Source: a virus
Lineage: Duplodnaviria; Heunggongvirae; Uroviricota; Caudoviricetes
Direction: 5' to 3' (one strand)
Virus record (IMG/VR): IMGVR_UViG_2671180864_000007
DNA length: 22,134 nucleotides
Part shown: piece after piece, positions 798 through 15,808 of the stretch
How positions within the stretch are numbered: position 1 is the first letter of the stretch
Layout of the letters: the number at the start of each line of letters is the position of its first letter
Notes under the pieces: model-generated
Seen by the model: only the letters and a program-made list of their open reading frames with translations
The model's database searches: none
Told to the model about the DNA's origin: nothing
Program-made: the position numbers and the translations under genes

Positions 798-1379
798 TTA
801 CCCTATAGGTGCTACTGGCCATTCAATATCCGGTGCAGTTGATGTATCAACACGGTTCAGCAACACCCGATACTTTTTCCAGGCTTCCAGCAACAAGGTT
901 TCTTTCTCCGTTGCGATCTCCAGATCCACAGCATCCTGAAGCGGCGCTATATGCTCACTGGCTACCTGCATCAGGCTGTTTTTTGTTTCTTCCGCCTCCC
1001 GGATCCGGAACAGTTTTTCTGCTTCCGTATCCTTCACCCAGGCTGTGCCGTTCCACTTCTGAAACTCCCCTTCCGGGGATAACCAGGTGACATTTTCCGG
1101 TAATGAGCCGAGTTCAGAAATAAATAACGCGTCGCCGGAAGCCACGTCATAAACCGTTTTACCCCGATGATCTTCAACGAGATGCCACGATGACTCATCA
1201 CTGTTGAAAACAGCCACGAAACCAGCCGGAATATCTGGCGGTGCAATATCGGTACTGTTTGCAGGCAGACCTGTATGAGGCGGAATATATGCGTCACCTT
1301 CACCAATAAATTCATTAGTTCCGGCCAGCAGGTTATAAATTTTTATGGTCCGTGCTTGTTCACTCATTCTGAATGCCAT
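798..1379 (-). CDS. tfa: Tail fibre assembly protein Tfa
   Basis: 193-aa [57 protein letters not shown]..., near-identical to lambda Tfa as recalled. Confidence 0.92.
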
Positions 1380-3899: not shown

Positions 3900-5047
3900 A
3901 CATCATTCCCCGTAAAATACGGAAACCTGTCTGCCGCAGTAGCAAGCCCCGCCAGCGCCGTCAGGGTGGCATCTTTCGGTTGCTTACCCGCAAGCGCGTT
4001 AGTCATGGTGGTCGCAAAATTCGGGTCGTTGCCCAGCGCCGCAGCCAGCTCGTTCAGCGTGTTCAGTGCATCAGGTGACGAATCTACAAGGGCGGCAATC
4101 GCAGCCATAACGAAAGCCGTGCTTGCGATTTGGGTATTATTCGTTCCCTGTCGCGCAGTTGGTGTTGTTGGCGTTCCGGTCAGTGCAGGACTATTTAAGG
4201 GCGCTTTCTTGTTCGTTTCACCCATTACCGCCTTAACCGCTTTTGGCGTTGCCGCCAGTGACTCGGAAGTGCTGTTGGTCGCACTGCTGAGCTGTACTAT
4301 CCCCTTTTTCGTCGTGCTCGCATCCTCAAGCGCCACGGCGGATGCAATATCCTCTGCCCGTTTTGCTGCTGTCTCGGCGCGCGTTGCCGCGGATTCAGCA
4401 GCAACTTTGCTCTGAGATGCAGCCGTCGCACTGCCTGCCGCCTCTGATGCTTTCGTTGTTGCTGTCGTGGCACTACCTTTCGCTGCTGACGCTTGTCTGG
4501 TCGCCTCATCTTTTGAAGCAGACGCAGATGATGCCGATGACGCCGCTGAACTGGCTGACGATGCGGCTGCTGCCTTAGAGGAAGCAGCATTGTCTGCTGA
4601 AGTCTTTGCATTTGTTTCAGAGGTTTTTGCTGCAGAAGCAGACCTCGCTGCTGCAGTGGCTTGCTCAGTGGCTTTGCCAGCCTTCGTTGTGGCTGTTGAA
4701 GCGGATGATGCGGCGCTTTCTGCCGATTTTCCGGCGGCGGTGGCACTGGCTGAGGCCTGCCCGGCACTTGTTGACGCGGCACTGGCAGATAATGCAGCCG
4801 CTGTTTTTGAACCTGCCGCAGCTGAGGCGCTCTGTCCCGCTGCTGTTTCAGAAGACTTAGCGTTCGTCTCGGACGTTTTTGCCGCCTTCGCGGAATTTCC
4901 TGCCGCCGTTGCCGAGGAAGCTGCACTACTGGCACTTGATGATGCATTCGTTTCTGACGTTTTCGCGGCACTGGCGCTGGTAGCTGCCGCGCTTTTTGAT
5001 GACTCTGCAGCAGCACTTTTTGCTGCTTCACGGGCCTTTGTCGATGC
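3900..5047 (-). CDS. stf: Stf internal segment (Ala-rich repeats then the lambda-like central region ...[57 protein letters not shown]...FTGND), bounded by gaps on both sides
   Basis: Hand translation of the 1379-4336 ORF frame upstream of 4336 stays open and gives ...[38 protein letters not shown]...[17 protein letters not shown]. Confidence 0.6.
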
Positions 5048-5059
5048 CNNNNNNNNNNN
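5048..5059. other. Assembly gap (N run) inside the stf repeat region
   Basis: N run; the flank below it matches 7199-7265 and the flank above matches 3318 onward. Confidence 0.9.
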
Positions 5060-6204
5060 GACGATGCGGCAGCCGTTTTTGAGGATTCTGCACGGGTTTC
5101 CGACGCTTTCGCGTTCGTTTCGGATGTCTTCGCTGCGGAAGCTGACCTCGCTGCTGCCGTGGCCTGCTCAGTGGCTTCGCCAGCCTTCGTTGTGGCTGTT
5201 GAAGCGGATGATGCGGCGCTTTCTGCCGATTTTCCGGCGGCGGTGGCACTGGCTGAGGCCTGCCCGGCACTTGTTGACGCGGCGCTGGCAGACGACGCAG
5301 CCGCTGTTTTTGAGCCTGCCGCAGCTGAGGCACTCTGTCCCGCTGCCGTTTCAGAAGACCTGGCGTTCGTCTCGGACGTTTTGGCCGCCTTCGCAGAATT
5401 TGCAGCCGCCGTCGCCGAGGAAGCTGCGCTACTGGCGCTTGATGATGCGTTCGTTTCTGATGATTTTGCCGCCTCTTTTGAAGCCGACGCATCCCGGGCT
5501 GAGGTGGCAGCTTCTGACGCTTTCGTGGTCGCGGTGGATGCAGAAGTGGCTGCTGATTGTTGTGACGCTGCCGCATTCGTTTCTAACGTTTTCGCCGCAC
5601 CGGCACTGGTAGCCGCCGCGCTTTTTGAGGACTCTGCAGCGGCAGCACTTTTTGAGGCTTCAGTGGCCTTTGTTGATGCCGTTCCTGCGCTGGAAGACGC
5701 TGACTGAGCCGACGAAGCGGCCTGTCCGGCTGACGTGCTGGCTGCACGTGCTGAATCTGCAGCATCAGTCGCATGGGTTGCCGCCTCACGGGCTGATGTG
5801 CTGGCATCGCTGGCTGATTTCTTCGCGGCTGCCGTGTTCTGTGCCACCGCGGACGCGTTACGCGCCACCTCTTCCACCATCAGCTCAAAACGGCGCAGTG
5901 CCTCCGGACGGGCATCATCCTCCGTCATGGCACCGAGAAAATCATTCAGCGTACCGGGTCGGGAATCTTCATACACGGTGATGGTCCCGGCATGTGACGG
6001 CGGGAATCCTTCCACCAACAGAATAACGCTGTACTGACCGTACTCAACGTCCATGCTGTAACGCCCGGCTTCATCCGGATTTTCTGAGGCCAGCGTGTTC
6101 ACCACCACCGTGGTGCTGTTACGTTTTGCTTTCAGCTGGATTGTGCAGTTCTGTACCGGTTTTCCTGTGCCGTCTTTCAGTACACCTGAAATCTTTACTG
6201 CCAT
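5060..6204 (-). CDS. stf: Side tail fibre Stf, 5' portion (lambda-like N-terminus MAVKISGVLKDGTGKPVQNCTIQLKAK...), 3' end cut by the N run at about 5048-5059
   Basis: ATG at 6202-6204 (the ORF track starts 6 nt upstream at GTG); N-terminal domain followed by the Ala-rich repeat region. 5060-5630 is identical to 3318-3888. Confidence 0.7.
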
Positions 6205-6214
6205 ATTCACCCCA

Positions 6215-6302: not shown

Positions 6303-6526
6303 TCAGTGCGCCAGAGACGTGTTGCTGTGGCGACCGTCATCACTTCCGGTCAGCACATCGTGCGTTTTCCCCTTATTGTCAGTTACGCGGATATAATCCC
6401 CGGAAAAAGTCGACACACGGCTGTAAGCCACACCCGCCATCGCATACGCGCTGAACCATTCATTCACGCGCACAGACGGCCCCGCCATCACGCTGAACCA
6501 GCGGTTACGCACGGAATCTTCATGCC
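6303..6526 (-). pseudogene. lom: Lom fragment (3' part with the same internal deletion as the copy at 10121-10603), joined to stf repeat sequence at N 6527
   Basis: 6260-6526 is identical to 10078-10344; ORF 6303-6512 reads ...RHSNTSLAH*. Confidence 0.55.
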
Positions 6527-6527
6527 N

Positions 6528-7768
6528 GTCGCACTGCCTGCCGCCTCTGATGCTTTCGTTGTTGCTGTCGTGGCACTACCTTTCGCTGCTGACGCTTGTC
6601 TGGTCGCCTCATCTTTTGAAGCAGACGCAGATGATGCCGATGACGCCGCTGAACTGGCTGACGATGCGGCTGCTGCCTTAGAGGAAGCAGCATTGTCTGC
6701 TGAAGTCTTTGCATTTGTTTCAGAGGTTTTTGCTGCAGAAGCAGACCTCGCTGCTGCAGTGGCTTTGCCAGCCTTCGTTGTGGCTGTTGAAGCGGATGAT
6801 GCGGCGCTTTCTGCCGATTTTCCGGCGGCGGTGGCACTGGCTGAGGCCTGCCCGGCACTTGTTGACGCGGCACTGGCAGATAATGCAGCCGCTGTTTTTG
6901 AACCTGCCGCAGCTGAGGCGCTCTGTCCCGCTGCTGTTTCAGAAGACTTAGCGTTCGTCTCGGACGTTTTTGCCGCCTTCGCGGAATTTCCTGCCGCCGT
7001 TGCCGAGGAAGCTGCACTACTGGCACTTGATGATGCATTCGTTTCTGAAGATTTCGCTGCCTCTTTTGAGGCCGCCGCACCCCGTGCCGAGGTGGCAGCT
7101 TCTGACGCCTTCGTGGTCGCTGTGGATGCAGAAGTGGCTGCCGATTTTTGTGATGCTGCGGCATTCGTTTCTGACGTTTTCGCGGCACTGGCGCTGGTAG
7201 CTGCCGCGCTTTTTGATGACTCTGCAGCAGCACTTTTTGCTGCTTCACGGGCCTTTGTCGATGCCGTTCCTGCGCTGGAAGACGCTGACTGAGCCGACGA
7301 CGCGGCCTGTCCGGCTGACGTGCTGGCGGCACGTGCTGAGGCTGCAGCATCGGTTGCATGAGTTGCCGCCTCGCTGGCTGATTTTTTCGCGGCTGCCGTA
7401 TTCTGTGCAACCGCGGAGGCGTTACGTGACACCTCTTCCACCATCTGCTCAAAGCGGCGCAGTGCCTCCGGTCGGACATCATCCTCCGTCATGGCACCGA
7501 GAAAATCATTCAGCGTACCTGGTCTGGAACCTTCATAGACGGTAATGGTCCCGGCATGTGAAGGCGGAAAACCTTCAACCAGCAGGGTGACGCTGTACTG
7601 ACCATGCTCAACATCCATGCTGTAACGTCCGGCTTCATCCGGATTTTCAGAGGCCACCGTGTTCACCACCATCGTGCTGCTGGTTCGTCTGGCCTTCAGC
7701 ACAATGGTGCAGTTCTGTACTGGTTTTCCTGTGCCATCTTTAAGCACGCCAGAAATTTTTACTGTCAT
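6528..7768 (-). CDS. stf: Side tail fibre Stf, 5' portion (variant N-terminus MTVKISGVLKD...), 3' end cut at the ambiguous base 6527
   Basis: ORF 6488-7768 encodes the Stf N-terminal domain plus the Ala/Ser/Thr-rich repeat region (...[40 protein letters not shown]...). Confidence 0.7.
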
Positions 7769-7781
7769 ACTTTTCCACCAA

Positions 7782-7814
7782 TAAAAAAAGCCCGCAGCAG
7801 TGACGCCACGGGCT
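7782..7814 (-). terminator. Intrinsic terminator between lom and stf (copy Y)
   Basis: Minus strand: agcccg...cgggct hairpin followed by TTTTTTT; the stem is short and the loop long, so this is weaker than the other terminators. Confidence 0.4.
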
Positions 7815-7919
7815 TCAGGACAGTGTAACTTTACGTTTCCTCAAACGCAGTTCACCCCATAAGGTGGATGAACCTGCGTATCATAACAATATTTACAGAA
7901 GATAAATCGGCGTCTGTTG

Positions 7920-8519
7920 TCAGATACGGTATCCGATACCAACAATAAATGCATCCGTTCGCCAGTCACCACTACCGGAACCTTCATAAGCAAGGTCAAT
8001 GGTCACGGATTCGGTCGGGTTAAACTGCACGCCAGCCCCCCACGCCAGAGACGTGTTGCTGTGGCGACCGTCATCACTTCCGGTCAGCACATCGTGCGTT
8101 TTCCCCTTGTTGTCAGTTACGCGGAGATAATCCCCGGAGAAAGTCGACACACGGCTGTAAGCCACACCCACCATCGCATACGCGCTGAACCATTCATTCA
8201 CGCGTACAGACGGCCCCGCCATCACGCTGAACCAGCGGTTACGCACGGAATCTTCATGCCAGCGGGTATCGCTGTAGTGCGTTTTTTGCTCATCCTCAGC
8301 ATTGGCATAACTGAAGGACGTAATCAGCCCCAGCGCGTCCGTAAACTCATAACGGTATTTCACGTTAATCCCGTTCAGATTATCGCTGCCGGGAGCGTTC
8401 GTACGGGCATGAAGATACCCCGCGCTCAGTGTGGACTGATGTTCAGACGCCCATGCAGGCGCACCGGATACGGCCAGGCAAATGGCTGCGGACAAAATGG
8501 CTGCACAAACTTTACGCAT
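7920..8519 (-). CDS. lom: Lom outer membrane protein (Ail/Lom/OmpX family), intact copy
   Basis: 199-aa ORF with signal peptide MRKVCAAILSAAICLAVSGAPAWA and the beta-barrel C-terminus ...DAFIVGIGYRI; matches lambda Lom. Confidence 0.88.
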   Translation of the reverse strand: MRKVCAAILSAAICLAVSGAPAWASEHQSTLSAGYLHARTNAPGSDNLNGINVKYRYEFTDALGLITSFSYANAEDEQKTHYSDTRWHEDSVRNRWFSVMAGPSVRVNEWFSAYAMVGVAYSRVSTFSGDYLRVTDNKGKTHDVLTGSDDGRHSNTSLAWGAGVQFNPTESVTIDLAYEGSGSGDWRTDAFIVGIGYRI

Positions 8520-8542
8520 AATTACCTCTCGCTTTTCTGCAA

Positions 8543-8567
8543 TAAAAAAGGCGCCATTTCTGGCGCC
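8543..8567 (-). terminator. Intrinsic terminator between J (copy B) and lom
   Basis: Minus strand: stem ggcgcca / tggcgcc with loop gaaa, followed by TTTTTTATT. Confidence 0.55.
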
Positions 8568-8586
8568 CGTATATGGGTTATAAAAT

Positions 8587-9916
8587 TCAGCTGATACTGA
8601 TGCCTGCGGTGGCTTTCTTCATCACCACAACCAGCAAATCGCTGATACTTGCTGTGGGATACCAGTTATTCACCAGCCATGCTGACACCGAAAACTCCAG
8701 CGTCATGTGGCCGCGACCAGCTGGCATATCAATAACACCACTGTAAATCAGCGTATTATCCAGCGCGGTACGGTTATAAATTTCAGCACCGTTTTTCCGT
8801 ACTATCAGGCGGCATGACGAATAAATATCGTTATTCTCCCGCTCATGTTTAGCGCCGCTGAATGCCACCGCCGGAATAACAATTTGCCTGTCAAAAGGCT
8901 GATCGTCATAAATCCTGACGGTAATGGTCCCTGATGGCCACCGCTCCGGTGCCCGGGAGTCCCGCGGAAAAGCCTTACCCACTGTTTTGACTATATCGCC
9001 TTCAATCTGGTTGGCTGACAGTTTCCCCTTAATCTGACAGTTCTCATTAATTGTGACATTGTTGAGCGTCCCGGCGTTCGCATTCACACTGCCACTGATA
9101 TCTGCATTTTTAGCGGTCAGTTTTCCGTCCGGTGTCAGGGAAAATGCCGGAGGATTACCGCCGCTGGTAATGGTGGGAGCCGTCAGGCGTTTCAGGAACA
9201 CGTCGTTCATGAATATCTGATCGCCCTGACCAACAAACATCGGCTTTGTGTTGCCATTCGCAGGATTAATCATCGCAATCCTGTCTGCCGCCAGCAGCAC
9301 CTGACTCTGCATTCCTGCTGGCGTATTCTCAATACCGGCACCGATACCCGCAATATAAAGGCGTCCGTCCTTCATCTGTTGCAGCTTCACAGCCCACATG
9401 CTGTTCAGATTATTATTTGTATCAACCTGAACCTTCTGTATCTGCTGGATTGCCGCACTCTGGTCTTTCAGTTTCTTATTGACAGTCTGCGTGATTTCAT
9501 TGCTGACATCCGTAATGGACGTCCTGATTTCAGCCAGGTCAGGCGCAAGCTGACCGTTATCAATCTGCGTCCACAGCTCCTGAGCCAGATGTGTTTTCCC
9601 TATCTCTCCTTTGAAAAAATCCAGGTAACCTTCCGCATCATCGCTCGCCCGACCGACAGCCTCCACGAATGCCGATTTGCCAACGGTGTTCACACTGCGA
9701 ACGTAAAAATAATAATCATGGCCCGGTTTGATATTGATACTGGCGGCTATCCAGTACAGCGCCGTGCCAAGATAGCGGGCGCTGGTTTCAACCTGCCTGA
9801 TATCCGCAATCCGCTTTTCCGAGAACCAGAACTCAAACTGTACCGTCGGGTCATAAACGGCAAGATGCGGCGTTGCGGTTATCTGAAAATAGCCCGGCGT
9901 CAGCTCAATCCGCGAC
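8587..9916 (-). CDS. J: Second J 3' fragment (5' end cut by the gap) with a different C-terminal (putative receptor-binding) domain from the J at 10674
   Basis: [44 protein letters not shown]... is near-identical to the J at 11100-12000 up to ...NENC.IKG, then diverges over the last 145 aa or so (8587-9024). Confidence 0.7.
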
Positions 9917-9927
9917 NNNNNNNNNNN
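9917..9927. other. Assembly gap (N run) at a repeat boundary
   Basis: 11 N; the flank at 9928 onward is identical to 6110 onward (stf 5' end) and the other flank is the J 3' region. Confidence 0.9.
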
Positions 9928-10022
9928 GTGGTGCTGTTACGTTTTGCTTTCAGCTGGATTGTGCAGTTCTGTACCGGTTTTCCTGTGCCGTCTTTCAGTA
10001 CACCTGAAATCTTTACTGCCAT
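9928..10022 (-). CDS. stf: Side tail fibre Stf, 5' end only (truncated by the N run at 9917-9927)
   Basis: ATG at 10020-10022 preceded by GGGGTGA; encodes MAVKISGVLKDGTGKPVQNCTIQLKAK..., the lambda Stf N-terminus. Identical to 6110-6204. Confidence 0.6.
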
Positions 10023-10032
10023 ATTCACCCCA

Positions 10033-10060
10033 CAAAAAAGCCCGCCTGAACCGGCGGGCT
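10033..10060 (-). terminator. Intrinsic terminator immediately upstream of the stf start
   Basis: Minus strand: stem agcccgcc / ggcgggct with a 6-nt loop, followed by TTTTTT; 14 nt before the stf ATG. The same element recurs at 6215-6242. Confidence 0.55.
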
Positions 10061-10120
10061 GTCATAACACTGTGTTACCTGGCTAATCAGAATTTATAAC
10101 CGACACCCACGATGAAACCG

Positions 10121-10603
10121 TCAGTGCGCCAGAGACGTGTTGCTGTGGCGACCGTCATCACTTCCGGTCAGCACATCGTGCGTTTTCCCCTTATTGTCAG
10201 TTACGCGGATATAATCCCCGGAAAAAGTCGACACACGGCTGTAAGCCACACCCGCCATCGCATACGCGCTGAACCATTCATTCACGCGCACAGACGGCCC
10301 CGCCATCACGCTGAACCAGCGGTTACGCACGGAATCTTCATGCCAGCGGGTATCGCTGTAACGGGTCAGCTGGCGATTCTTGTCTCCTGCATAGCTGAAT
10401 GACGTCACCAGCCCCAGCGTATCCGTAAACTCATAACGGTATTTCACGTTAATCCCGTTCAGATCATCACTGCCGGGAACGTTGGTCCGGGCATGAAGAT
10501 ACCCCGCGCTCAGCGTGGACTGATGTTCAGACGCCCATGCAGGCGCACCGGATACGGCCAGGCAAATGGCTGCGGACAAAATGGCTGCACAAACTTTACG
10601 CAT
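10121..10603 (-). pseudogene. lom: Lom (Ail/OmpX-family outer membrane protein), copy with an internal deletion of about 88 bp and a premature stop
   Basis: 160-aa ORF identical in the N-terminal part to the intact copy at 7920-8519, ending ...SNTSLAH*. The Lom C-terminal sequence DGFIVGVGYKF* follows out of frame at about 10096-10120, missing about 29 aa plus a frameshift. Confidence 0.7.
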
Positions 10604-10673: not shown

Positions 10674-13600
10674 TCAACGAATACTGATGCCGGAAGCCGC
10701 TTTTTTGGTCACAATCACCGTACAGTCGGTGATATTGCCTGCCCCCTGATTGCCTTTCTGGAAAATCTTAAACTCCAGAGTGACGCTACCACCACCACTA
10801 GGCATATCAATAACTGCACTGTAACTACCGGGAATGGCACCTTTAGTTTCTCTGGATGCGATTAATACGCCGTTTTTGCGAACTTCAAAACCATAACCCG
10901 TGTATCGCGTGCCTCCTGGGTTATTTCCGCTCCCCGGATCGTCATACGCTATACCGTTAAAAATAATGGGCGGAATAATAATCTGGCGGTCAAAGTTATG
11001 ATCATCGCTTATGGTGACTGTAACCGTCCCGTTTGGTGTTTCCGTGTTACCCCACGTACCAGCCTGTTTCGGAAATGATTTGGATACAGCTTTAACGAAG
11101 TCACCTCTGACCTGAGTCGCCTCCAGCATGCCCTTAATCGTACAGTTTTCATTTACCGTGACATTGTTGAGCGTCCCGGCGTTCGCATTCACACTGCCAC
11201 TGATATCCGCATTTTTAGCGGTCAGCTTTCCGTCCGGAGTCAGGGAAAATGCCGATGGATTTCCACCGCTGGTAATGGTGGGGGCCGTCAGGCGTTTCAG
11301 GAACACGTCGTTCATGAATATCTGATCGCCCTGACCAACAAACATCGGTTTTGTGTTGCCATTCGCAGGATTAACCATCGCAATCCTGTCCGCCGCCAGC
11401 AGCACCTGACTCTGCATGCCGTCAGGGGTGTTCTCAATACCGGCACCAATACCCGCGATATAAAGGCGTCCGTCCTGCATCTGCTGCAGCTTCACAGCCC
11501 ACATGCTGTTCAGGTTATTATTTGTATCAACCTGAACCTTCTGTATCTGCTGGATTGCCGCACTCTGGTCTTTCAGTTTCTTATTGACAGTCTGCGTGAT
11601 TTCATTGCTGACATCCGTAATGGACGTCCTGATTTCAGCCAGGTCAGGCGCAAGCTGACCGTTATCAATCTGCGTCCACAGCTCCTGAGCCAGATGGGTT
11701 TTCCCTATCTCGCCTTTGAAAAAATCCAGATAACCGGATGCATCATCACTCGGCTGACCAACAGCCTCCACGAATGCCGATTTGCCAACGGTGTTCACAC
11801 TGCGGATATAAAAGTAATAATCATGGCCCGGTTTGATATTGATACTGGCGGCTATCCAGTACAGCGCCGTGCCAAGATAGCGGGCGCTGGTTTCAACCTG
11901 CCTGATATCCGCAATCCGCTTTTCCGAGAACCAGAACTCAAACTGTACCGTCGGATCATAAACCGCAAGATGCGGCGTGGCGGTTATCTGAAAATAGCCC
12001 GGCGTCAGCTCAATCCGCGACGGTGCTGCCGGTGCGGCAATCCGGAAGGTGGTGGTGGCAGGTTCACCCTGCTGGCCATAGCTGTTTATCGCCCGCACCG
12101 TCAGGGTGTATTCCCCGAGCGGCAGGCCGCTGAAACGGTGCTCCGTGTCTGCGGTGATGGCGGTGGTCACCAGTCTGGCATCCGTTCCCTTACCACTGGT
12201 CAGGCGCAGACTGAAGCGCACACCCTTCACCACCCGCGGCGTGTCCCATTTCGCCTGCGCCAGATACTGGCCGTCAGGTGCTGCACTGCCGGTGGGATGA
12301 CGCTGTTCAGGGAACCTGACTGCGGCTCAAAGCGGGCACCGTTATCCACGATGGCTTCTTTTTCCAGTACGTGCTGCACCGCCGTGATGGCAAAGGTGCC
12401 GTCCGTGTTTTCCCGGACGGAGACACAGCGGAACAGGCGACGGCGCAGTGACGGCAGGGAGAGTCCCCACACCCCGTATGTCTCCACACCATCAGGCAGG
12501 GTACTGACCTGTATCCGGTCCGGCGCGGGGTGTTCGGTGATGTCCACACTCACCGGCTTACCGCTGCCGTTAATCAGGTTCACCGTGGCGGCACCGGTCT
12601 CCGGAAGTGTCACTTCACGGTCCAGCGTCAGAGTGCGGGTGGCAGCATCAATGGACAGGACACGTCCGCCGGTCAGGGTCCCGGCATAGTCGTTATCACA
12701 GATTTCAATGATGTCACCGGGTGTGTGCCGCAGCCCCTGAGACCCGAGCGTGAAATCCACCGTCTGCGTTTCCAGCAGTTCGGTCTTTATCACCCACAGT
12801 CCGGCACGGTGGGCCTGACCGCGGCTGGTACAGCCGAACGCGTCCATCTTCAGCAGGTTGCGTCCGTAGCGCAGTATGGCTTCCGGGTCTTCCACCAGTT
12901 CCGTGGAGGTCTGCCAGCCGTTCTGCGGGTCGGTATAATTCACCTCCACCGCCGTGTGCCGGTCCTTCAGGGCACTGAAGCTGTAGCGGAAACCCACGCC
13001 GTTATCATCCACCACCACATCGCTGTTGGTGTACGGCCACACCACATCCGACGGGCGGTCCTGAACAAACGTCAGCGTCTGGCCGTTCCATACCGGCATA
13101 CAGCGCATCGCCGAGCAGAAATCACTGAGCACGTCCCATGCCTTACGCTGTTGTGCCAGGTACGCATTGAAGGTCATCCGCGGCTCGGTCTCCCCGAAAC
13201 TATCCGGGACCGTCTGGTCGCAGTACTGCCCGATGGCATACAGCGCCCACTTGTCCACATCCGCCGCCCCCAGACGTTTTCCCATGCCGTAGCGCGGGTG
13301 AGTCAGCATGTCCCACAGACACCAGGCCGGATTGTTGCTGTATGCCGGTTTCAGGCTGCCGTCCCAGATACCACTGTACGTGCGTTTTTCCGGGTCATAG
13401 TTTGACGGCACCTGGATGATGCGACCGCGGATATGGTAGTTCACCGTCATCTGCTGGCCGCCGAACTGCTCCGCATCCACCTGCAGCCCCACAATGGCCG
13501 TGTTCGGGTAGCACTGTTTCACATCGATGATTTCGGTGTATGACGACCACAGCGTCTTATTCTGCAGCTGGTCCGTGGTGCTGTCCGCTGTCTCCCGGAC

Positions 13601-14143
13601 CATCCGGATGTTAAAAGGACGGGGAGGCAGATTATCCAGAATCACCGACGCCAGAAACTGCGAGGTGGTCTTGCCGTTAATGGTGACATCCTTTTCTGTC
13701 ACCCAGTTACCGTTACGCTGTAACTGAATCAGCAGGCGGACGGATGTCGGGTTTCGGTCACCCTTTGACGTGGTCTGCACCAGTGACTGCACCCCGAAGG
13801 TAACCCGCAGGCGGTCAATGTTCGCGGACGTAATGGTGCGCGTCACCGGTTTTGCCTTCGTCACTTCCACGCCCAGTCCGGTTTCAGCACCGGAGGACTC
13901 AAAGCCTTCCGGTGGTGTCTGCTCCTGCTCCCCGGCGCGTCAGACCGCCGTCACACCGTGTATCACGGGATTACCGTCCGTGTCCGTCAGCGGGGTTTTG
14001 TTCACCAGGATACTCTGCAGTCCCTTCACCGGACCTTCTATCAGTCCCTCACCAATCGCATCAATCACGCTCATCATCTGCGTGGATTTGAGATTATCCT
14101 TCGCCTCACGAGGCGTGTGTGCCTTACCGCCACCTTTTCCCAT
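10674..14143 (-). pseudogene. J: Central tail fibre / tail tip protein J, disrupted as sequenced: in-frame TGA at 13940-13942 and a frame change within about 12230-12275
   Basis: Three collinear ORF pieces (13940-14143, 12227-13870 extended upstream, 10674-12233) each match lambda J segments (MGKGGGKAHTPREAKDNLKSTQ...; ...TRTITSANIDRLRVTFGVQ...; ...[41 protein letters not shown]...). Pieces 1 and 2 share a frame and are separated only by TGA; piece 3 is in the -1 frame. The last 150 aa or so diverge from lambda. Confidence 0.7.
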
Positions 14144-14249
14144 ACAGCCTTCCCCTGAATAAATTAACCGCCACTTGCCATTCCGTACAGAAGTCGGATA
14201 TCCTTCGCCCGAAAAGCATGAAACACATTTCTGCCATGCTAAAGAGAAA

Positions 14250-14282
14250 CCCCGGTATCAGCAGATACCGGGGTTTTCTTTC
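14250..14282. terminator. Bidirectional intrinsic terminator-like hairpin in the I-J spacer
   Basis: 10-bp stem ccccggtatc / gataccgggg (14250-14259 and 14264-14273) with a 4-nt loop, flanked by AAAGAGAAA upstream and TTTTCTTTC downstream, so a U-rich tail follows on either strand. Confidence 0.5.
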
Positions 14283-14346
14283 ATGCCCACCGATAATCCT
14301 GTTGGTTAAAACCGGTAATGGCATAAAAATTCTGAATATCTTCACA

Positions 14347-14376
14347 TTTTCACAAACTGACTGTGGCGCGTATAAT
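14347..14376 (+). promoter_or_regulatory. Candidate sigma70-type promoter on the plus strand (consensus -10 TATAAT at 14371-14376, weak -35)
   Basis: Perfect TATAAT hexamer in an AT-rich stretch; an alternative extended -10 TGATATAAG lies at 14400-14408. About 65-95 nt upstream of the plus-strand terminator at 14441-14479. Confidence 0.3.
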
Positions 14377-14440
14377 TTCTCTGCGTTAATTTTTTTGTCG
14401 TGATATAAGAATAATTCCTTACACTTAATCTTCGTAACTC

Positions 14441-14479
14441 TCCCGCAGTTCCTGTCCGCGATCACTGCGGGATTTTTTT
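14441..14479 (+). terminator. Plus-strand intrinsic terminator in the I-J spacer
   Basis: Stem tcccgcagt / actgcggga (14441-14449 and 14464-14472) followed by TTTTTTT (14473-14479); there is no U-tract on the minus strand. Confidence 0.5.
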
Positions 14480-14486
14480 ATTCTTT

Positions 14487-15167
14487 TTACCCCTGCCGCC
14501 CGATAACCACGACCTTTCCGCCCCCGCCTTCATCACGGGTGCTGATGTCCTGGGATATACGGCGGGAGCCAACCAGCATTTCCCCGTAAGGCACCGGCAT
14601 CGGGTTCCCCTGGGCAATCATGTTATCCAGTGAGGAAAAGTACGTGTTCTGTCTGCCGTTATCCGTTGCGCGGTAATCCGGTGTTTTTGCCTTCGGGGCC
14701 AGCATCTGGGCCACACCGCCCAGAATCATGCTGGCTCCAAGTGAAAACAGCATCGTGGTGGCAGAAAAACCACCGGCTGCCAGGGCTGAACCCCATAACG
14801 CCATTGATGCCCCGGCAGTGAAGAAAGAGCCCACGATGGCTGCCGCCCCCAGCACAATCTGCAGTCCACCCTTTCCGGCCCCGGCCAGTCGCGGCACAAT
14901 GTGGATGACCGTTCCCTCACCCAGCTGTTCGTGAAGACGGGCGTACACCGCCTCCGGTGCCGTGTCATAACCGGCAATACGTATCTGGTACCAGCCTTCG
15001 TTCATCTGACGGCGAAAGCCCGGCATCTGCATCGACAGGGCGCGAATGGCTTCCGCTGCCGTGTTCACATACAGGCTGAGGCGGCGGCCAAATCGTTGTA
15101 AATCCCCGTGAAGGCAGATGCGTGCCAGTGGCGGTGACGCCAGACTGAATGCGTTCGTCGTTGCCAT
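14487..15167 (-). CDS. I: Tail tip assembly protein I
   Basis: 226-aa ORF MATTNAFSLASPPLARICLHGDLQRFGRR..., collinear with lambda I, including the Gly/Ala-rich hydrophobic segment. Confidence 0.9.
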   Translation of the reverse strand: MATTNAFSLASPPLARICLHGDLQRFGRRLSLYVNTAAEAIRALSMQMPGFRRQMNEGWYQIRIAGYDTAPEAVYARLHEQLGEGTVIHIVPRLAGAGKGGLQIVLGAAAIVGSFFTAGASMALWGSALAAGGFSATTMLFSLGASMILGGVAQMLAPKAKTPDYRATDNGRQNTYFSSLDNMIAQGNPMPVPYGEMLVGSRRISQDISTRDEGGGGKVVVIGRQG

Positions 15168-15808
15168 TTTTCGGAATACCTCTCCCGTTTACTCAGTTGT
15201 TCAGGCAGATGGTGAAGCAGCTCACCGTTGCCGCAGTAAATGGCGGCATGGTTCGGTACCGAAGCACCAAAGCAGCACAGCAGAATATCGCCCGCCTGTG
15301 CAGAGGACAGGGGCACCCGGTAAAAGCCGGTGACCGCCATATTGTCCAGGTAAAGGTTCTGACCGTTGCGCCACCAGTCATCCTCGCGATGAAAATCCGG
15401 CATTTCAGTCCCCGCCAGATGATAAGCATCCCGGAACAGCGTGTAACAGTCCGTCACCCCGTGCTCAAAGCGCCGTCCTGTCAGATGTGGCACACAGCGG
15501 AATTTGTGAATGTCACCCCGGCAGACCAACCACCAGGGCAGTGCGCTTTTTATCTGCAACCGCCGGTCAGCCTCGCTCAGCCAGGGCAGCCCACCGGGAT
15601 GACTGTGGACCAGTGCCACAATCTCCCCCTGCATCTCTGCCCGCAGCCAGTCTTCCGGTGCGATACGAAAATACGCCTCCGGCTCTGCGGAAATATTCAC
15701 ACAAGGGATATACCGCTCCCCCTCCGGCGTGCTTATCACGAAGCCGCACGACTCCGCAGGCGCACACCGCCGGGCATGTGCCAGAATCGCTGATTCAGTC
15801 TGTGTCAT
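15065..15808 (-). CDS. K: Tail tip assembly protein K (JAMM/MPN metalloprotease-like N-domain plus NlpC/P60-like C-domain)
   Basis: Start placed at the internal ATG (15806-15808) giving MTQTESAILAHARR..., the lambda K N-terminus; the longer ORF-track version overlaps L out of frame. Contains E...HSHPGGLPWLSEAD (JAMM-like) and a downstream Cys/His region. 247 aa, with the 3' end overlapping I by about 100 nt as in lambda. Confidence 0.85.
   Translation of the reverse strand: MTQTESAILAHARRCAPAESCGFVISTPEGERYIPCVNISAEPEAYFRIAPEDWLRAEMQGEIVALVHSHPGGLPWLSEADRRLQIKSALPWWLVCRGDIHKFRCVPHLTGRRFEHGVTDCYTLFRDAYHLAGTEMPDFHREDDWWRNGQNLYLDNMAVTGFYRVPLSSAQAGDILLCCFGASVPNHAAIYCGNGELLHHLPEQLSKRERYSEKWQRRTHSVWRHRHWHASAFTGIYNDLAAASACM

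What the first reader, a model, noticed from the sequence alone, without database searches (positions are those of the whole stretch)
14144..14486. AT-rich insertion of about 340 bp between I and J carrying terminator hairpins and a promoter-like element (candidate small RNA or regulatory moron)
In lambda, as I recall, I and J are separated by only a few tens of bp; here the spacer is about 343 bp and 14280-14440 is markedly AT-rich compared with the flanking tail genes. It contains a GC-rich 10-bp hairpin with U-tracts on both sides (14250-14282), a consensus TATAAT (14371-14376), and a plus-strand hairpin plus T7 terminator (14441-14479) about 65-95 nt downstream of that -10. This layout fits a short plus-strand transcript antisense to the tail operon, and a hairpin that could stop non-antiterminated minus-strand transcription before J-lom-stf. 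The only ORFs here (113 aa minus, 94 aa plus) run through the hairpins and overlap the J start, so a protein product looks unlikely.
Basis: partly seen in the sequence, partly recalled or inferred. Interest (0 to 1): 0.55.

Follow-up and report, generated by a model that had tools for sequence, protein, structure and literature searches.

The report
Prophage small RNA gene (PasB family)
The extra DNA between the phage tail genes I and J is a self-contained small-RNA gene of the known PasB family, which is Hfq-dependent and prophage-encoded; this copy is a diverged allele that the published survey method would have missed.

Summary

- **Gene layout.** The 343-bp I-J spacer (14144-14486) carries, on the + strand (antisense to the tail operon):
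  - the only near-consensus sigma-70 promoter in the window (TTCACA-16-TATAAT, 14349-14376);
  - a 7-bp GC hairpin followed by U7 (14443-14479).
  - Together these predict a ~97-nt RNA (14383-14479).
- **Known relatives.** PasB of EPEC E2348/69 sits at the same position and in the same orientation. It is an 83-nt RNA seen on northern blots, Hfq-dependent, with 37 RIL-seq partners. By my coordinate mapping, so do EcOnc22/23/24 of O157 Sakai (~85 nt, destabilised without Hfq).
- **Homology.** A profile built only from E2348-type alleles matches window 14383-14478 end to end (E = 9e-11).
- **Why the allele was missed.** The body is only ~72% identical to E2348/69 PasB. A megablast with word size 28, as used in the 2026 PasB census, finds nothing in the window.
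- **Distribution.** The identical allele is in CFT073 and ATCC 25922, and 633 records of the 5,426 complete E. coli genomes match at >=99%.
- **Second hairpin.** The hairpin at 14250-14282 is a very stable terminator-like element that could act in both directions. Its role is inferred.

The kind is known; this is a new member. Interest is modest.

The parts
14144..14486 (.). I-J intergenic spacer of a lambda-like tail module. It acts as a moron slot: AT-rich, 343 bp versus 60 bp in lambda.
   Evidence: In related loci the same slot is 234-346 bp, or 854-903 bp when it also holds a sodC gene.
14330..14382 (+). Conserved promoter block. It holds tandem TTCACA hexamers (14341-14346 and 14349-14354, the second being the -35), a 16-nt spacer, and the -10 TATAAT at 14371-14376.
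   Evidence: 11/12 match. Only such site in the window. Near-identical in E2348/69 and O157 copies. Present with <=3 mismatches in 64 of 77 loci that were selected only by their I protein.
14383..14479 (+). Predicted primary transcript of a PasB-family sRNA, 97 nt. By analogy with the annotated 83-nt PasB, a processed or mature 5' end would lie near 14397.
   Evidence: Start inferred from the -10 position; end is the U7 run. A profile of E2348-type PasB alleles matches 14383-14478, E = 9e-11. The annotated PasB 5' end lies 24 nt downstream of the -10, after the U-run. Fold z = -2.1 (97 nt) and -2.45 (83 nt).
14425..14434 (+). UUAAUCUUCG: the most conserved non-terminator stretch across 35 distinct alleles, and the candidate seed. 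Unpaired probability is 0.83-0.97 for 14429-14434 and lower (0.29-0.83) for 14425-14428.
   Evidence: conservation and unpaired probability; unpaired in the consensus fold. This agrees with the seed position proposed for PasB in the 2026 preprint.
14443..14479 (+). Rho-independent terminator and probable Hfq-binding module. A 7-bp stem (14443-14449 / 14465-14471) has a variable loop and is followed by U7 (14473-14479). The 3' end lies 7 nt from the I stop codon.
   Evidence: The stem is present in all 20 aligned alleles while the loop varies in length and sequence. The published PasB northern probe covers this segment, with a 20-nt exact match.
14241..14282 (.). Strong terminator-like hairpin that could act in both directions. 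The 10-bp GC-rich stem is extended by A-run/U-run pairing.
   Evidence: dG -26/-27, z -7.1/-6.1. It occurs only in the 'long' spacer class. It is precisely deleted in L065, L142 and L202. Other spacer classes and lambda carry unrelated hairpins with the U-run in the tail-operon direction.
14144..14240 (-). J 5' leader of the long spacer class, with GGGGAAGG as the Shine-Dalgarno sequence. It contains a weak + strand promoter-like site at 14175-14204 (9/12).
   Evidence: No evidence of a separate product.
14487..15167 (-). Tail assembly gene I (226 aa).
   Evidence: Pfam Lambda_tail_I, 6e-17.
12263..14143 (-). N-terminal part of the tail tip gene J. It is disrupted here by an in-frame TGA at 13942-13940 and a frame change near 12263-12284.

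Best explanation
The spacer holds an autonomous small-RNA gene, a 'moron' with its own promoter and terminator. It lies antisense to the phage late tail operon, between I and J.

**Predicted expression.** In a lysogen the tail genes are silent. Host sigma-70 RNA polymerase would start at about 14383 and terminate at the U7 run (14479). That gives a ~97-nt RNA, possibly trimmed after the 5' U-run to ~83 nt.

**Family.** The RNA is a diverged allele of PasB (EPEC), a family that by my mapping also includes EcOnc22-24 (EHEC).

**Predicted mechanism.** By homology, its terminator hairpin plus U-tail binds Hfq. Its conserved unpaired core (UUAAUCUUC, 14425-14433) base-pairs in trans with mostly core-genome mRNAs to alter their translation or stability.

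**What is shown and what is inferred.**
- Shown here: the anatomy, the homology, the conservation pattern and the distribution.
- Taken from the literature for homologues only: expression, size, Hfq dependence and trans partners.
- Inferred: expression and targets of this allele.

**The separate hairpin at 14250-14282.** It is most likely an intrinsic terminator that insulates the slot. It would stop unmodified polymerase coming down the tail operon before J-lom-stf, and stop + strand antisense transcription before the sRNA promoter. Q-modified polymerase would read through it in lytic growth. This is inferred.
For: **Anatomy**
- The 11/12 promoter is unique in the window.
- A terminator hairpin plus U7 follows it.
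- The segment is AT-rich.

**Position and orientation**
- They are identical to PasB of E2348/69, which lies between I and J and antisense to them.
- In about 120 related IMG/VR loci the element always lies between I and J.

**Homology**
- The promoter block and the terminator are near-identical.
- The full-length profile hit has E = 9e-11 and is the only significant hit in the window.

**Conservation pattern typical of an sRNA gene**
- The promoter, 5' leader, core and terminator stem are conserved.
- The terminator loop and the flanks of the core vary and carry indels.

**Experimental data on homologues**
- PasB gives an 83-nt band on northern blots. Its RNA-seq level falls by log2 -6.8 and -2.4 without hfq.
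- PasB has 37 RIL-seq partners, 30 of them CDS or 5'UTR. It is the second RNA in >=98.7% of chimeras, and over 98% of chimeric fragments involve core-genome partners.
- EcOnc22 gives an ~85-nt band and is destabilised in a delta-hfq strain. EcOnc22/23/24 map to the I-J spacers of Sakai Sp15, Sp14 and Sp11 on the antisense strand.
- The Sakai coordinates needed a +139 offset, supported.

**Retention**
- 1,846 of 5,426 complete E. coli genomes have a family member, and 633 records match this allele at >=99%.
- The allele is intact here although J is a pseudogene.
Against: - There are no transcript data for this allele or this strain.
- Rfam has no model, so there is no independent family call.
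- The body is only ~72% identical to PasB (64 of 89 aligned columns), so its targets may differ.
- The terminator stem never varies, so it offers no covariation support. The only covarying pair is in a weak 5' stem.
- The annotated PasB 5' end does not sit at the distance expected from the strong promoter. Either PasB is processed or that end is imprecise.
- Assigning the EcOnc22-24 Hfq peaks to the sRNA body depends on a +139 coordinate offset between genome versions. I inferred that offset from two markers and did not read it from the old record.
Confidence: 0.85

Rival explanations
1. The RNA acts mainly in cis. It is fully complementary to the I-J intercistronic part of the late tail mRNA. 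It could pair with that mRNA, whether from its own prophage after induction or from a superinfecting relative with the same spacer, and so change processing, stability or J expression.
For: - The gene is embedded antisense in the tail operon at a fixed position in all loci examined.
- Its 3' end is 7 nt from the I stop.
- The spacer, and therefore the complementarity, is shared by many lambdoid phages.
Against: - It overlaps neither the I coding sequence nor the J ribosome-binding site. In this spacer class the J start is 240 nt from the sRNA start.
- In EPEC over 98% of PasB chimeric fragments involve core-genome partners. Its tabulated partners are 30 CDS/5'UTR and 4 3'UTR/IGR elements.
- Tail genes are almost silent in the lysogen (baseMean 5-15).
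- The allele is kept intact beside a dead J here.
Confidence: 0.08
2. The segment is a non-functional length variant, a decaying remnant of recombination between phages. The promoter-like and terminator-like motifs would be incidental.
For: - The spacer varies in length from 234 to 903 bp and is mosaic.
- IS insertions and a hairpin deletion occur in some copies.
Against: - The promoter and terminator are the best-conserved parts of an otherwise variable spacer.
- Homologues are abundant, Hfq-bound RNAs in two pathotypes.
- An 11/12 promoter is expected 0.2 times per window by chance.
Confidence: 0.04
3. The spacer encodes a small protein, from the 113-aa minus-strand ORF, the 94-aa plus-strand ORF, or a shorter ORF within them.
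For: The ORFs exist. One phage record labels the matching region 'hypothetical protein'.
Against: - No Pfam hit, and only chance-level PHROG hits (E = 0.1-0.2).
- Alignments with close relatives show indels of 2, 3, 2 and 2 nt plus a ~100-nt block, which break both frames.
- The ORFs run through both hairpins and the promoter.
Confidence: 0.01
4. The 14250-14282 hairpin is not an insulator of the tail operon. Instead it is the terminator of a second + strand product from 14144-14282. That product would be a ~70-nt RNA from the weak promoter-like site at 14175-14204, or the relic of a lost cargo gene.
For: - There is a 9/12 promoter-like site at 14175-14204.
- The hairpin has a U-run on the + strand too.
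- In two related loci the same sub-slot holds a + strand sodC gene with its own + strand terminator, just upstream of the PasB promoter.
Against: - The promoter is weak (-10 TATCCT).
- The long class is almost invariant, so conservation says nothing.
- None of the O157 Hfq peaks I mapped (EcOnc22/23/24, 33, 51, 54, 59) falls on such a segment.
- Lambda and the short classes have hairpins whose U-run faces the tail-operon direction only.
Confidence: 0.1

Closest known systems
PasB sRNA of EPEC E2348/69 (Pearl Mizrahi et al. 2021, PMC8550237; census by Zhu, Shabalina and Storz 2026, bioRxiv 10.64898/2026.05.13.724894)
   Same: - Same slot (I-J spacer of a lambdoid prophage) and same antisense orientation.
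- Near-identical promoter block, and an identical 25-nt terminator/U-tail segment.
- Same conserved core, similar predicted size, and the same overall fold (weak 5' stem, unpaired core, terminator).
   Different: - The body is only ~72% identical, with several indels. The terminator loop is 5 nt longer, and the core flanks differ (CCUUACACUUAAUCUUCG versus CCUUCACAUUGAUCUUCA).
- The longest shared exact word is 25 nt, so the census search (word size 28, coverage >75%) cannot find it.
- The census describes PasB variants as differing by only a few nucleotides.
- The spacer here also has an extra ~100 bp with a different hairpin.
EcOnc22 / EcOnc23 / EcOnc24 of E. coli O157:H7 Sakai (Tree et al. 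2014, PMC4104026, Table S2)
   Same: - Hfq-crosslinked RNAs on the strand antisense to the tail genes, in the I-J spacers of Sp15, Sp14 and Sp11.
- ~85 nt on northern blot, destabilised without Hfq.
- The spacers carry a PasB-family allele with the same core and terminator stem.
   Different: - A third allele type with a weaker promoter (AATAAT -10, degenerate -35) and a different 5' body.
- The link to PasB is my mapping and is not stated in either paper. It rests on a +139 coordinate offset.
Phage 'morons' (Juhala et al. 2000 concept, cited): lom and bor in lambda, sodC in lambdoid prophages
   Same: - An autonomous transcription unit (promoter, cargo, terminator) placed between two late genes.
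- Composition differs from that of its neighbours.
- It would be expressed from the repressed prophage.
- The same slot carries sodC in some relatives.
   Different: The cargo is a non-coding RNA, and it is oriented against the late operon.
AgvB / AsxR anti-sRNAs of EHEC prophages (Tree et al. 2014)
   Same: Prophage-encoded, Hfq-binding, short, with a Rho-independent terminator.
   Different: - They lie 3' of PR' in the lysis-region moron site, not in the tail module.
- They are 51-60 nt.
- They have an unrelated sequence.
- There is no Rfam AgvB or AsxR hit in the window.

Membership tests
PasB sRNA family | Gene lies in the intergenic spacer between tail assembly gene I and tail tip gene J of a lambdoid prophage, on the strand opposite the tail genes | tested here: met
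   Window: I 14487-15167(-), J start 14143(-), sRNA on +. E2348/69: PasB 1466343..1466261(-) lies between I (ends 1466255, +) and J (starts 1466496, +).
PasB sRNA family | Sequence homology to E2348/69 PasB over most of its length | tested here: met
   An nhmmer profile of six E2348-type alleles matches model positions 1-97 to window 14383-14478, 36 bits, E = 9e-11. Global identity of the mature regions is 64/89 columns.
PasB sRNA family | Operational criterion of the 2026 census: blastn hit with word size 28 and query coverage >75% | tested here: not met
   Word size 28 gives no hit. Word size 11 gives only the 25-nt terminator (30% coverage). This is a search threshold, not a biological definition.
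PasB sRNA family | [quoted passage not shown] | tested here: met
   7-bp stem plus U7. Conserved core at 14425-14434, unpaired probability 0.83-0.97 for 14429-14434. The feature is described.
PasB sRNA family | Expressed as an ~83-nt RNA whose stability depends on Hfq, with multiple trans mRNA partners | not testable with these tools
   Known only for E2348/69 and, by my mapping, for Sakai EcOnc22. There are no transcript data for this allele.
Phage moron | Own promoter and terminator flanking a cargo that is inserted between conserved late genes and absent from the reference phage | tested here: met
   Promoter and terminator. The lambda spacer is 60 bp and holds only a hairpin. GC drop.
AgvB/AsxR anti-sRNA family | Located 3' of PR'; 51-60 nt; conserved 3' region GUAUCUCAUGC...GCCCGAACCC | tested here: not met
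   Different location, length and sequence. No Rfam RF02702 or RF02703 hit.
Any Rfam family | Covariance-model score at or above the gathering threshold | tested here: not met
   No gathering-level hit in the spacer. The best sub-threshold hits (SSRC34_2 at 27 bits versus a threshold of 48, and others) only pick up the hairpin.
Intrinsic (Rho-independent) terminator, for the 14250-14282 hairpin | Stable GC-rich stem-loop immediately followed by a U-rich tract on the transcribed strand | tested here: met
   The 10-bp stem has 6 GC pairs. UUUUCUUUC follows on + and UUUCUCUUU on -. The consensus scan missed it, probably because the stem extends into the A/U runs. Termination activity was not testable.

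The most novel reading that the evidence does not exclude
The I-J slot may hold a family of interchangeable sRNA alleles. All share the promoter, the Hfq module and a short core, but they have diversified in the body. I found at least three major types (EPEC PasB, Sakai EcOnc22-24, and this ExPEC type) plus recombinants between them. Different E. coli lineages would then carry prophage sRNAs with different regulons. The ExPEC allele, found in CFT073 and ATCC 25922, would control a target set not seen in EPEC. In addition, because the RNA is perfectly complementary to the late mRNA of any phage sharing the spacer, it might also interfere with related superinfecting phages.
Probability: 0.15. 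Interest if true: 0.6.

Novelty: new member of a known kind. Interest (0 to 1): 0.35.

Why it matters
The kind is already established: prophage tail modules of pathogenic E. coli carry an Hfq-dependent sRNA gene (PasB). This window adds four practical points.

1. **The family is under-counted.**
   - The published census of 147,705 complete prokaryotic genomes found PasB in 1,107 chromosomes using a word-28 BLAST.
   - A looser search here finds a family member in 1,846 of 5,426 complete E. coli genomes.
   - 633 records match the window's allele at >=99%, and that allele is invisible to the census search.
2. **Reference strains carry it unannotated.** Widely used ExPEC and quality-control strains (CFT073, ATCC 25922) hold this allele, and no record I opened or that was listed under a hit annotates it as an RNA gene.
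3. **Two literatures describe the same locus.** EcOnc22-24 of O157 and PasB of EPEC appear to be the same locus.
4. **The I-J slot is a general cargo site.** It holds the sRNA alone, sodC plus the sRNA, or IS elements.

None of this changes how such sRNAs are thought to work.

Tried and rejected
- **Rfam.** I ran gathering and permissive scans. Nothing real turned up in the spacer, only hairpin-driven sub-threshold hits.
- **AgvB/AsxR anti-sRNAs.** This was my first recollection for an EHEC prophage sRNA. I rejected it because the genomic site, size and sequence all differ.
- **Coding potential.** The 113-aa and 94-aa ORFs have no family hits and suffer frame-breaking indels.
- **A second sRNA ending at the 14250-14282 hairpin.**
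  - I checked whether O157 Hfq peaks of about the right size fall in an I-J spacer.
  - EcOnc33 (~71 nt) and EcOnc54 do not: they lie next to the esterase and in the L-K moron of Sp6.
  - Sp6 has no I-J spacer at all, because I is truncated and followed by espX7.
- **EcOnc51 as a coordinate marker.** It is ambiguous, because PasA has two terminators 150 nt apart. I used AgvB1 and EcOnc59/cfa instead.
- **One-genome-per-species scan with the promoter pattern.**
  - It returned only E. albertii and a contaminated Streptomyces assembly.
  - The E. coli representative genome lacks the exact promoter pattern.
  - The scan therefore shows no exact-pattern match in any other genus, but it says little about more diverged copies.
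- **Literature searches.**
  - A full-text search for the promoter and terminator words found no relevant paper.
  - A search for a UPEC report of this sRNA also found none.
- **Covariation.** The terminator stem is invariant, so it gives no support either way.

Full report
**Observation.** The window carries a lambda-like tail module on the minus strand. Pfam identifies I at 14487-15167. It identifies J domains in 12227-13870 and 10674-12233, with J starting at 14143. The I-J spacer is therefore 14144-14486, 343 bp. In lambda itself I ends at 15444 and J starts at 15505, a 60-bp gap.

GC drops to 0.34-0.43 inside the spacer, against 0.53-0.64 in the flanking genes.
- The promoter TTCACA-16-TATAAT (14349-14376, + strand) matches 11 of 12 consensus positions. 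It is the only site that good on either strand of the 22-kb window, and 0.2 are expected by chance.
- The downstream hairpin (7-bp stem, 14443-14449 with 14465-14471) is followed by T7 at 14473-14479.
- The other hairpin (14250-14273, with A- and U-runs on either side) folds at -26 to -27 kcal/mol on both strands, z about -6 to -7.

**What it is.** The spacer is not annotated as an RNA gene in any record I opened or that was listed under a hit. Most rows show no feature at all. Rfam has no family for it.

The literature does have it. Pearl Mizrahi et al. 2021 (PMC8550237) found by RIL-seq five prophage sRNAs in EPEC E2348/69. Their Table S6 places PasB at NC_011601 1466343..1466261, minus strand, 83 nt, between E2348C_1436 and E2348C_1437. 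The northern probe is AATCCCGCAGTGATCGCGGAGCT. Those two genes are the tail assembly protein I (ends 1466255) and gpJ (starts 1466496), both on the plus strand. PasB therefore lies in the I-J spacer, antisense to the tail genes, exactly as the predicted RNA does here. The reverse complement of the probe matches window 14455-14474 exactly over 20 nt.

Aligning the window, E2348/69 and an O157 copy gives three results:
- The promoter block (window 14330-14382) is almost identical.
- The last 25 nt of the RNA are identical.
- The body between them has diverged.

A profile HMM built only from E2348-type alleles finds window 14383-14478 end to end (model positions 1-97, 36 bits, E = 9e-11). It finds nothing else significant in the window. 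I conclude that the locus is a pasB homologue.

**Second experimental line.** Table S2 of Tree et al. 2014 (PMC4104026) lists EcOnc22 (Sp15, ~85 nt by northern blot, destabilised in delta-hfq). It names EcOnc23 (Sp14) and EcOnc24 (Sp11) as its homologues, all on the + strand.

In the current Sakai record these three positions fall in I-J spacers whose tail genes are on the - strand. The spacers carry a third allele type of the same RNA, with the same core and terminator stem.

The paper used an older genome version, so I had to establish the coordinate offset.
- AgvB1 is displaced by +139.
- With +139, the core-genome peak EcOnc59 moves from the end of ydhC into the cfa 5' leader. There it lies more than 100 bp from both coding sequences, which the paper's own filter requires.
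- The spacing between the three EcOnc copies is the same in both versions, so one offset applies to all three.
- With +139, the Hfq peak (2902853-2902913) lies inside the predicted RNA (about 2902836-2902926).
- EcOnc51 could not settle the offset.

Neither the 2021 paper nor the 2026 census connects PasB with EcOnc22-24. This link is my inference. It should be checked on the old record.

**Family anatomy.** In essentially all of them the element sits between I and J.

These loci yield 31 distinct RNA alleles, many of them recombinants of a few body types. The window's allele is the commonest (38 loci). A second set of 80 loci was chosen only by their I protein. In 77 of them both I and J could be located:
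- All 77 carry the terminator word.
- 64 carry the promoter word with at most 3 mismatches.
- The other 13 have diverged promoters (7) or a sodC insertion (6).

Across 35 alleles, the parts that stay nearly constant are:
- the 5' GCGUUA and the U-run;
- a core, UUAAUCUU (window 14425-14432);
- the CCCGCAG/CUGCGGG stem and the U-tail.

The terminator loop (4 to 16 nt) and the sequences flanking the core vary. The consensus fold has a weak 5' stem (U-run with an A-rich stretch), an unpaired middle and the terminator. In the window RNA, positions 14429-14434 of the core have unpaired probabilities of 0.83-0.97. This agrees with the seed position proposed for PasB in the preprint. The stem never varies, so covariation neither supports nor contradicts it.

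**Transcript ends.** The strong promoter predicts a start near 14383, giving a 97-nt RNA. The annotated 5' end of PasB lies 24 nt downstream of the equivalent -10, just after the U-run. No credible promoter serves that position. Either the primary RNA is trimmed to 83 nt or the coverage-based end is imprecise. The window equivalent of that end is about 14397.

**Why the allele was missed.** The mature regions are 64/89 columns identical, and the longest shared exact word is 25 nt. Megablast with word size 28 finds nothing in the window. Word size 11 finds only the terminator, at 30% coverage.

The 2026 census (bioRxiv 10.64898/2026.05.13.724894) searched complete genomes with word size 28 and required >75% coverage. 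Its relaxed search excluded Escherichia and Shigella. It reports that PasB variants differ by only a few nucleotides.

In the 5,426 complete E. coli genomes available here, 1,846 have a match to window 14330-14486. Of the matching records, 633 are >=99% identical and 810 are 60-80% identical. The E2348/O157 type falls in or near that lower band.

CFT073 and ATCC 25922 (FDA strain Seattle 1946) both carry the window's allele and 343-nt spacer unchanged, next to an intact J. No paper in the searchable library mentions these sequences or a UPEC sRNA at this site.

**How it most likely works.** By homology, it is a trans-acting, Hfq-dependent, base-pairing sRNA expressed from the repressed prophage. 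In EPEC:
- pasB reads fall by log2 6.8 and 2.4 without hfq, and the tail genes beside it are nearly silent;
- expression was higher in the non-activating condition;
- PasB had 37 distinct partners, 30 of them CDS or 5'UTR;
- it was the second RNA in 100% and 98.7% of chimeric fragments, and fewer than 2% of fragments involved accessory-genome partners.

For the window's allele these properties are inferred. The altered core flanks could shift its target set. A cis effect on the complementary I-J junction of late mRNA cannot be excluded. However, the RNA overlaps neither the I coding sequence nor the J ribosome-binding site, and the allele is intact here although J is dead.

**The other hairpin.** The window belongs to a 'long' spacer class, with 188 nt between the J start and the promoter word. 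The E2348/69 and Sakai copies belong to 'short' classes (85-96 nt).

The short classes have an unrelated hairpin (CAGGCAYC...GRTGCCUG), preceded on the + strand by CAAAAACAA. That makes it an intrinsic terminator in the tail-operon direction. It shows one compensatory C-G to U-A change between variants. Lambda's 60-bp spacer consists essentially of such a hairpin with UUUUG in the tail direction.

A terminator-like hairpin just upstream of J is therefore common. It is not universal: spacers bearing sodC lack one with a U-run, and three loci have lost precisely the long-class hairpin.

The window's version has U-runs on both sides. The simple scan did not list it, probably because the stem extends into the A/U runs. 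That is reasonable, and I add that it would also shield the sRNA promoter from + strand read-in. Both roles are inferences. The alternative is that it terminates a second + strand product starting from the weak 14175-14204 site. That has no support beyond the motif.

**Verdict.** The window adds an uncatalogued but very common allele, a probable unification of PasB with EcOnc22-24, and a clearer picture of the I-J spacer as a cargo slot.

Noticed in passing
L161, L164, L186, L191 (854-855-nt spacers); L198, L200 (903-nt spacers): In some relatives the I-J spacer also carries a Cu,Zn superoxide dismutase gene (sodC-like, ~175 aa) on the strand antisense to the tail operon, with its own terminator. 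In six loci it replaces the PasB promoter, with the junction at the sRNA +1 region, and the sRNA body remains downstream. In two loci it sits upstream of an intact PasB promoter and a window-type sRNA, forming tandem morons.
   Followed up: partly
window 13940-13942 and 12263-12284: J is a pseudogene here. There is an in-frame TGA at codon 68 and a frame change near residue 627, after which identity to the ATCC 25922 J drops to ~50%. The sRNA locus next to it is intact.
   Followed up: partly
window 6488-10603: There is a partial tandem duplication or recombination of the J-lom-stf region. It comprises a second J C-terminus (8587-9693), a full lom (7920-8519) and a second tail-fibre N-terminal ORF (6488-7768). 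These lie next to a truncated lom (10121-10603) and another tail-fibre N-terminal ORF (4297-6210).
   Followed up: no
window 838-1036 (-): Rfam IS009 (RF02111) matches at 218 bits, inside the tail fibre assembly gene (798-1379). The 2026 census lists IS009 as one of the commonest structured hits in PasB flanks.
   Followed up: no
L126 (NZ_JBHTEB010000006.1, labelled Streptomyces flavalbus): This 3.4-kb contig in a Streptomyces assembly is 97% identical to window 12223-15615 (J-spacer-I) and has 58.6% GC. It is almost certainly E. coli prophage contamination.
   Followed up: yes
L020, L034; L065, L142, L202: The slot suffers insertions and deletions. One locus has an insertion next to the hairpin (L020). 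In another, the sequence diverges just after the -35 into what looks like an IS element (L034). Three loci have lost exactly the long-class hairpin, between short TTTCT repeats.
   Followed up: no
L002 1844-1867 (E2348/69); window 14383-14397: The published 5' end of PasB lies 24 nt downstream of the conserved TATAAT, immediately after a U-run, and no credible promoter serves it. This suggests either 5' processing of a ~105-nt primary RNA or an imprecise coverage-based end.
   Followed up: partly
L124 846-905 (lambda 15445-15504): Lambda's own I-J spacer is essentially one hairpin (CCGCC-CGCA-GGCGG) followed by UUUUG in the tail-operon direction, about 20 nt upstream of the J start.
   Followed up: no
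window 14341-14354: The -35 region is a tandem direct repeat (TTCACA TT TTCACA) that is invariant in most alleles. It could be a regulator binding site, given that PasB is condition-dependent in EPEC. I recognised no match to a known operator by eye.
   Followed up: no
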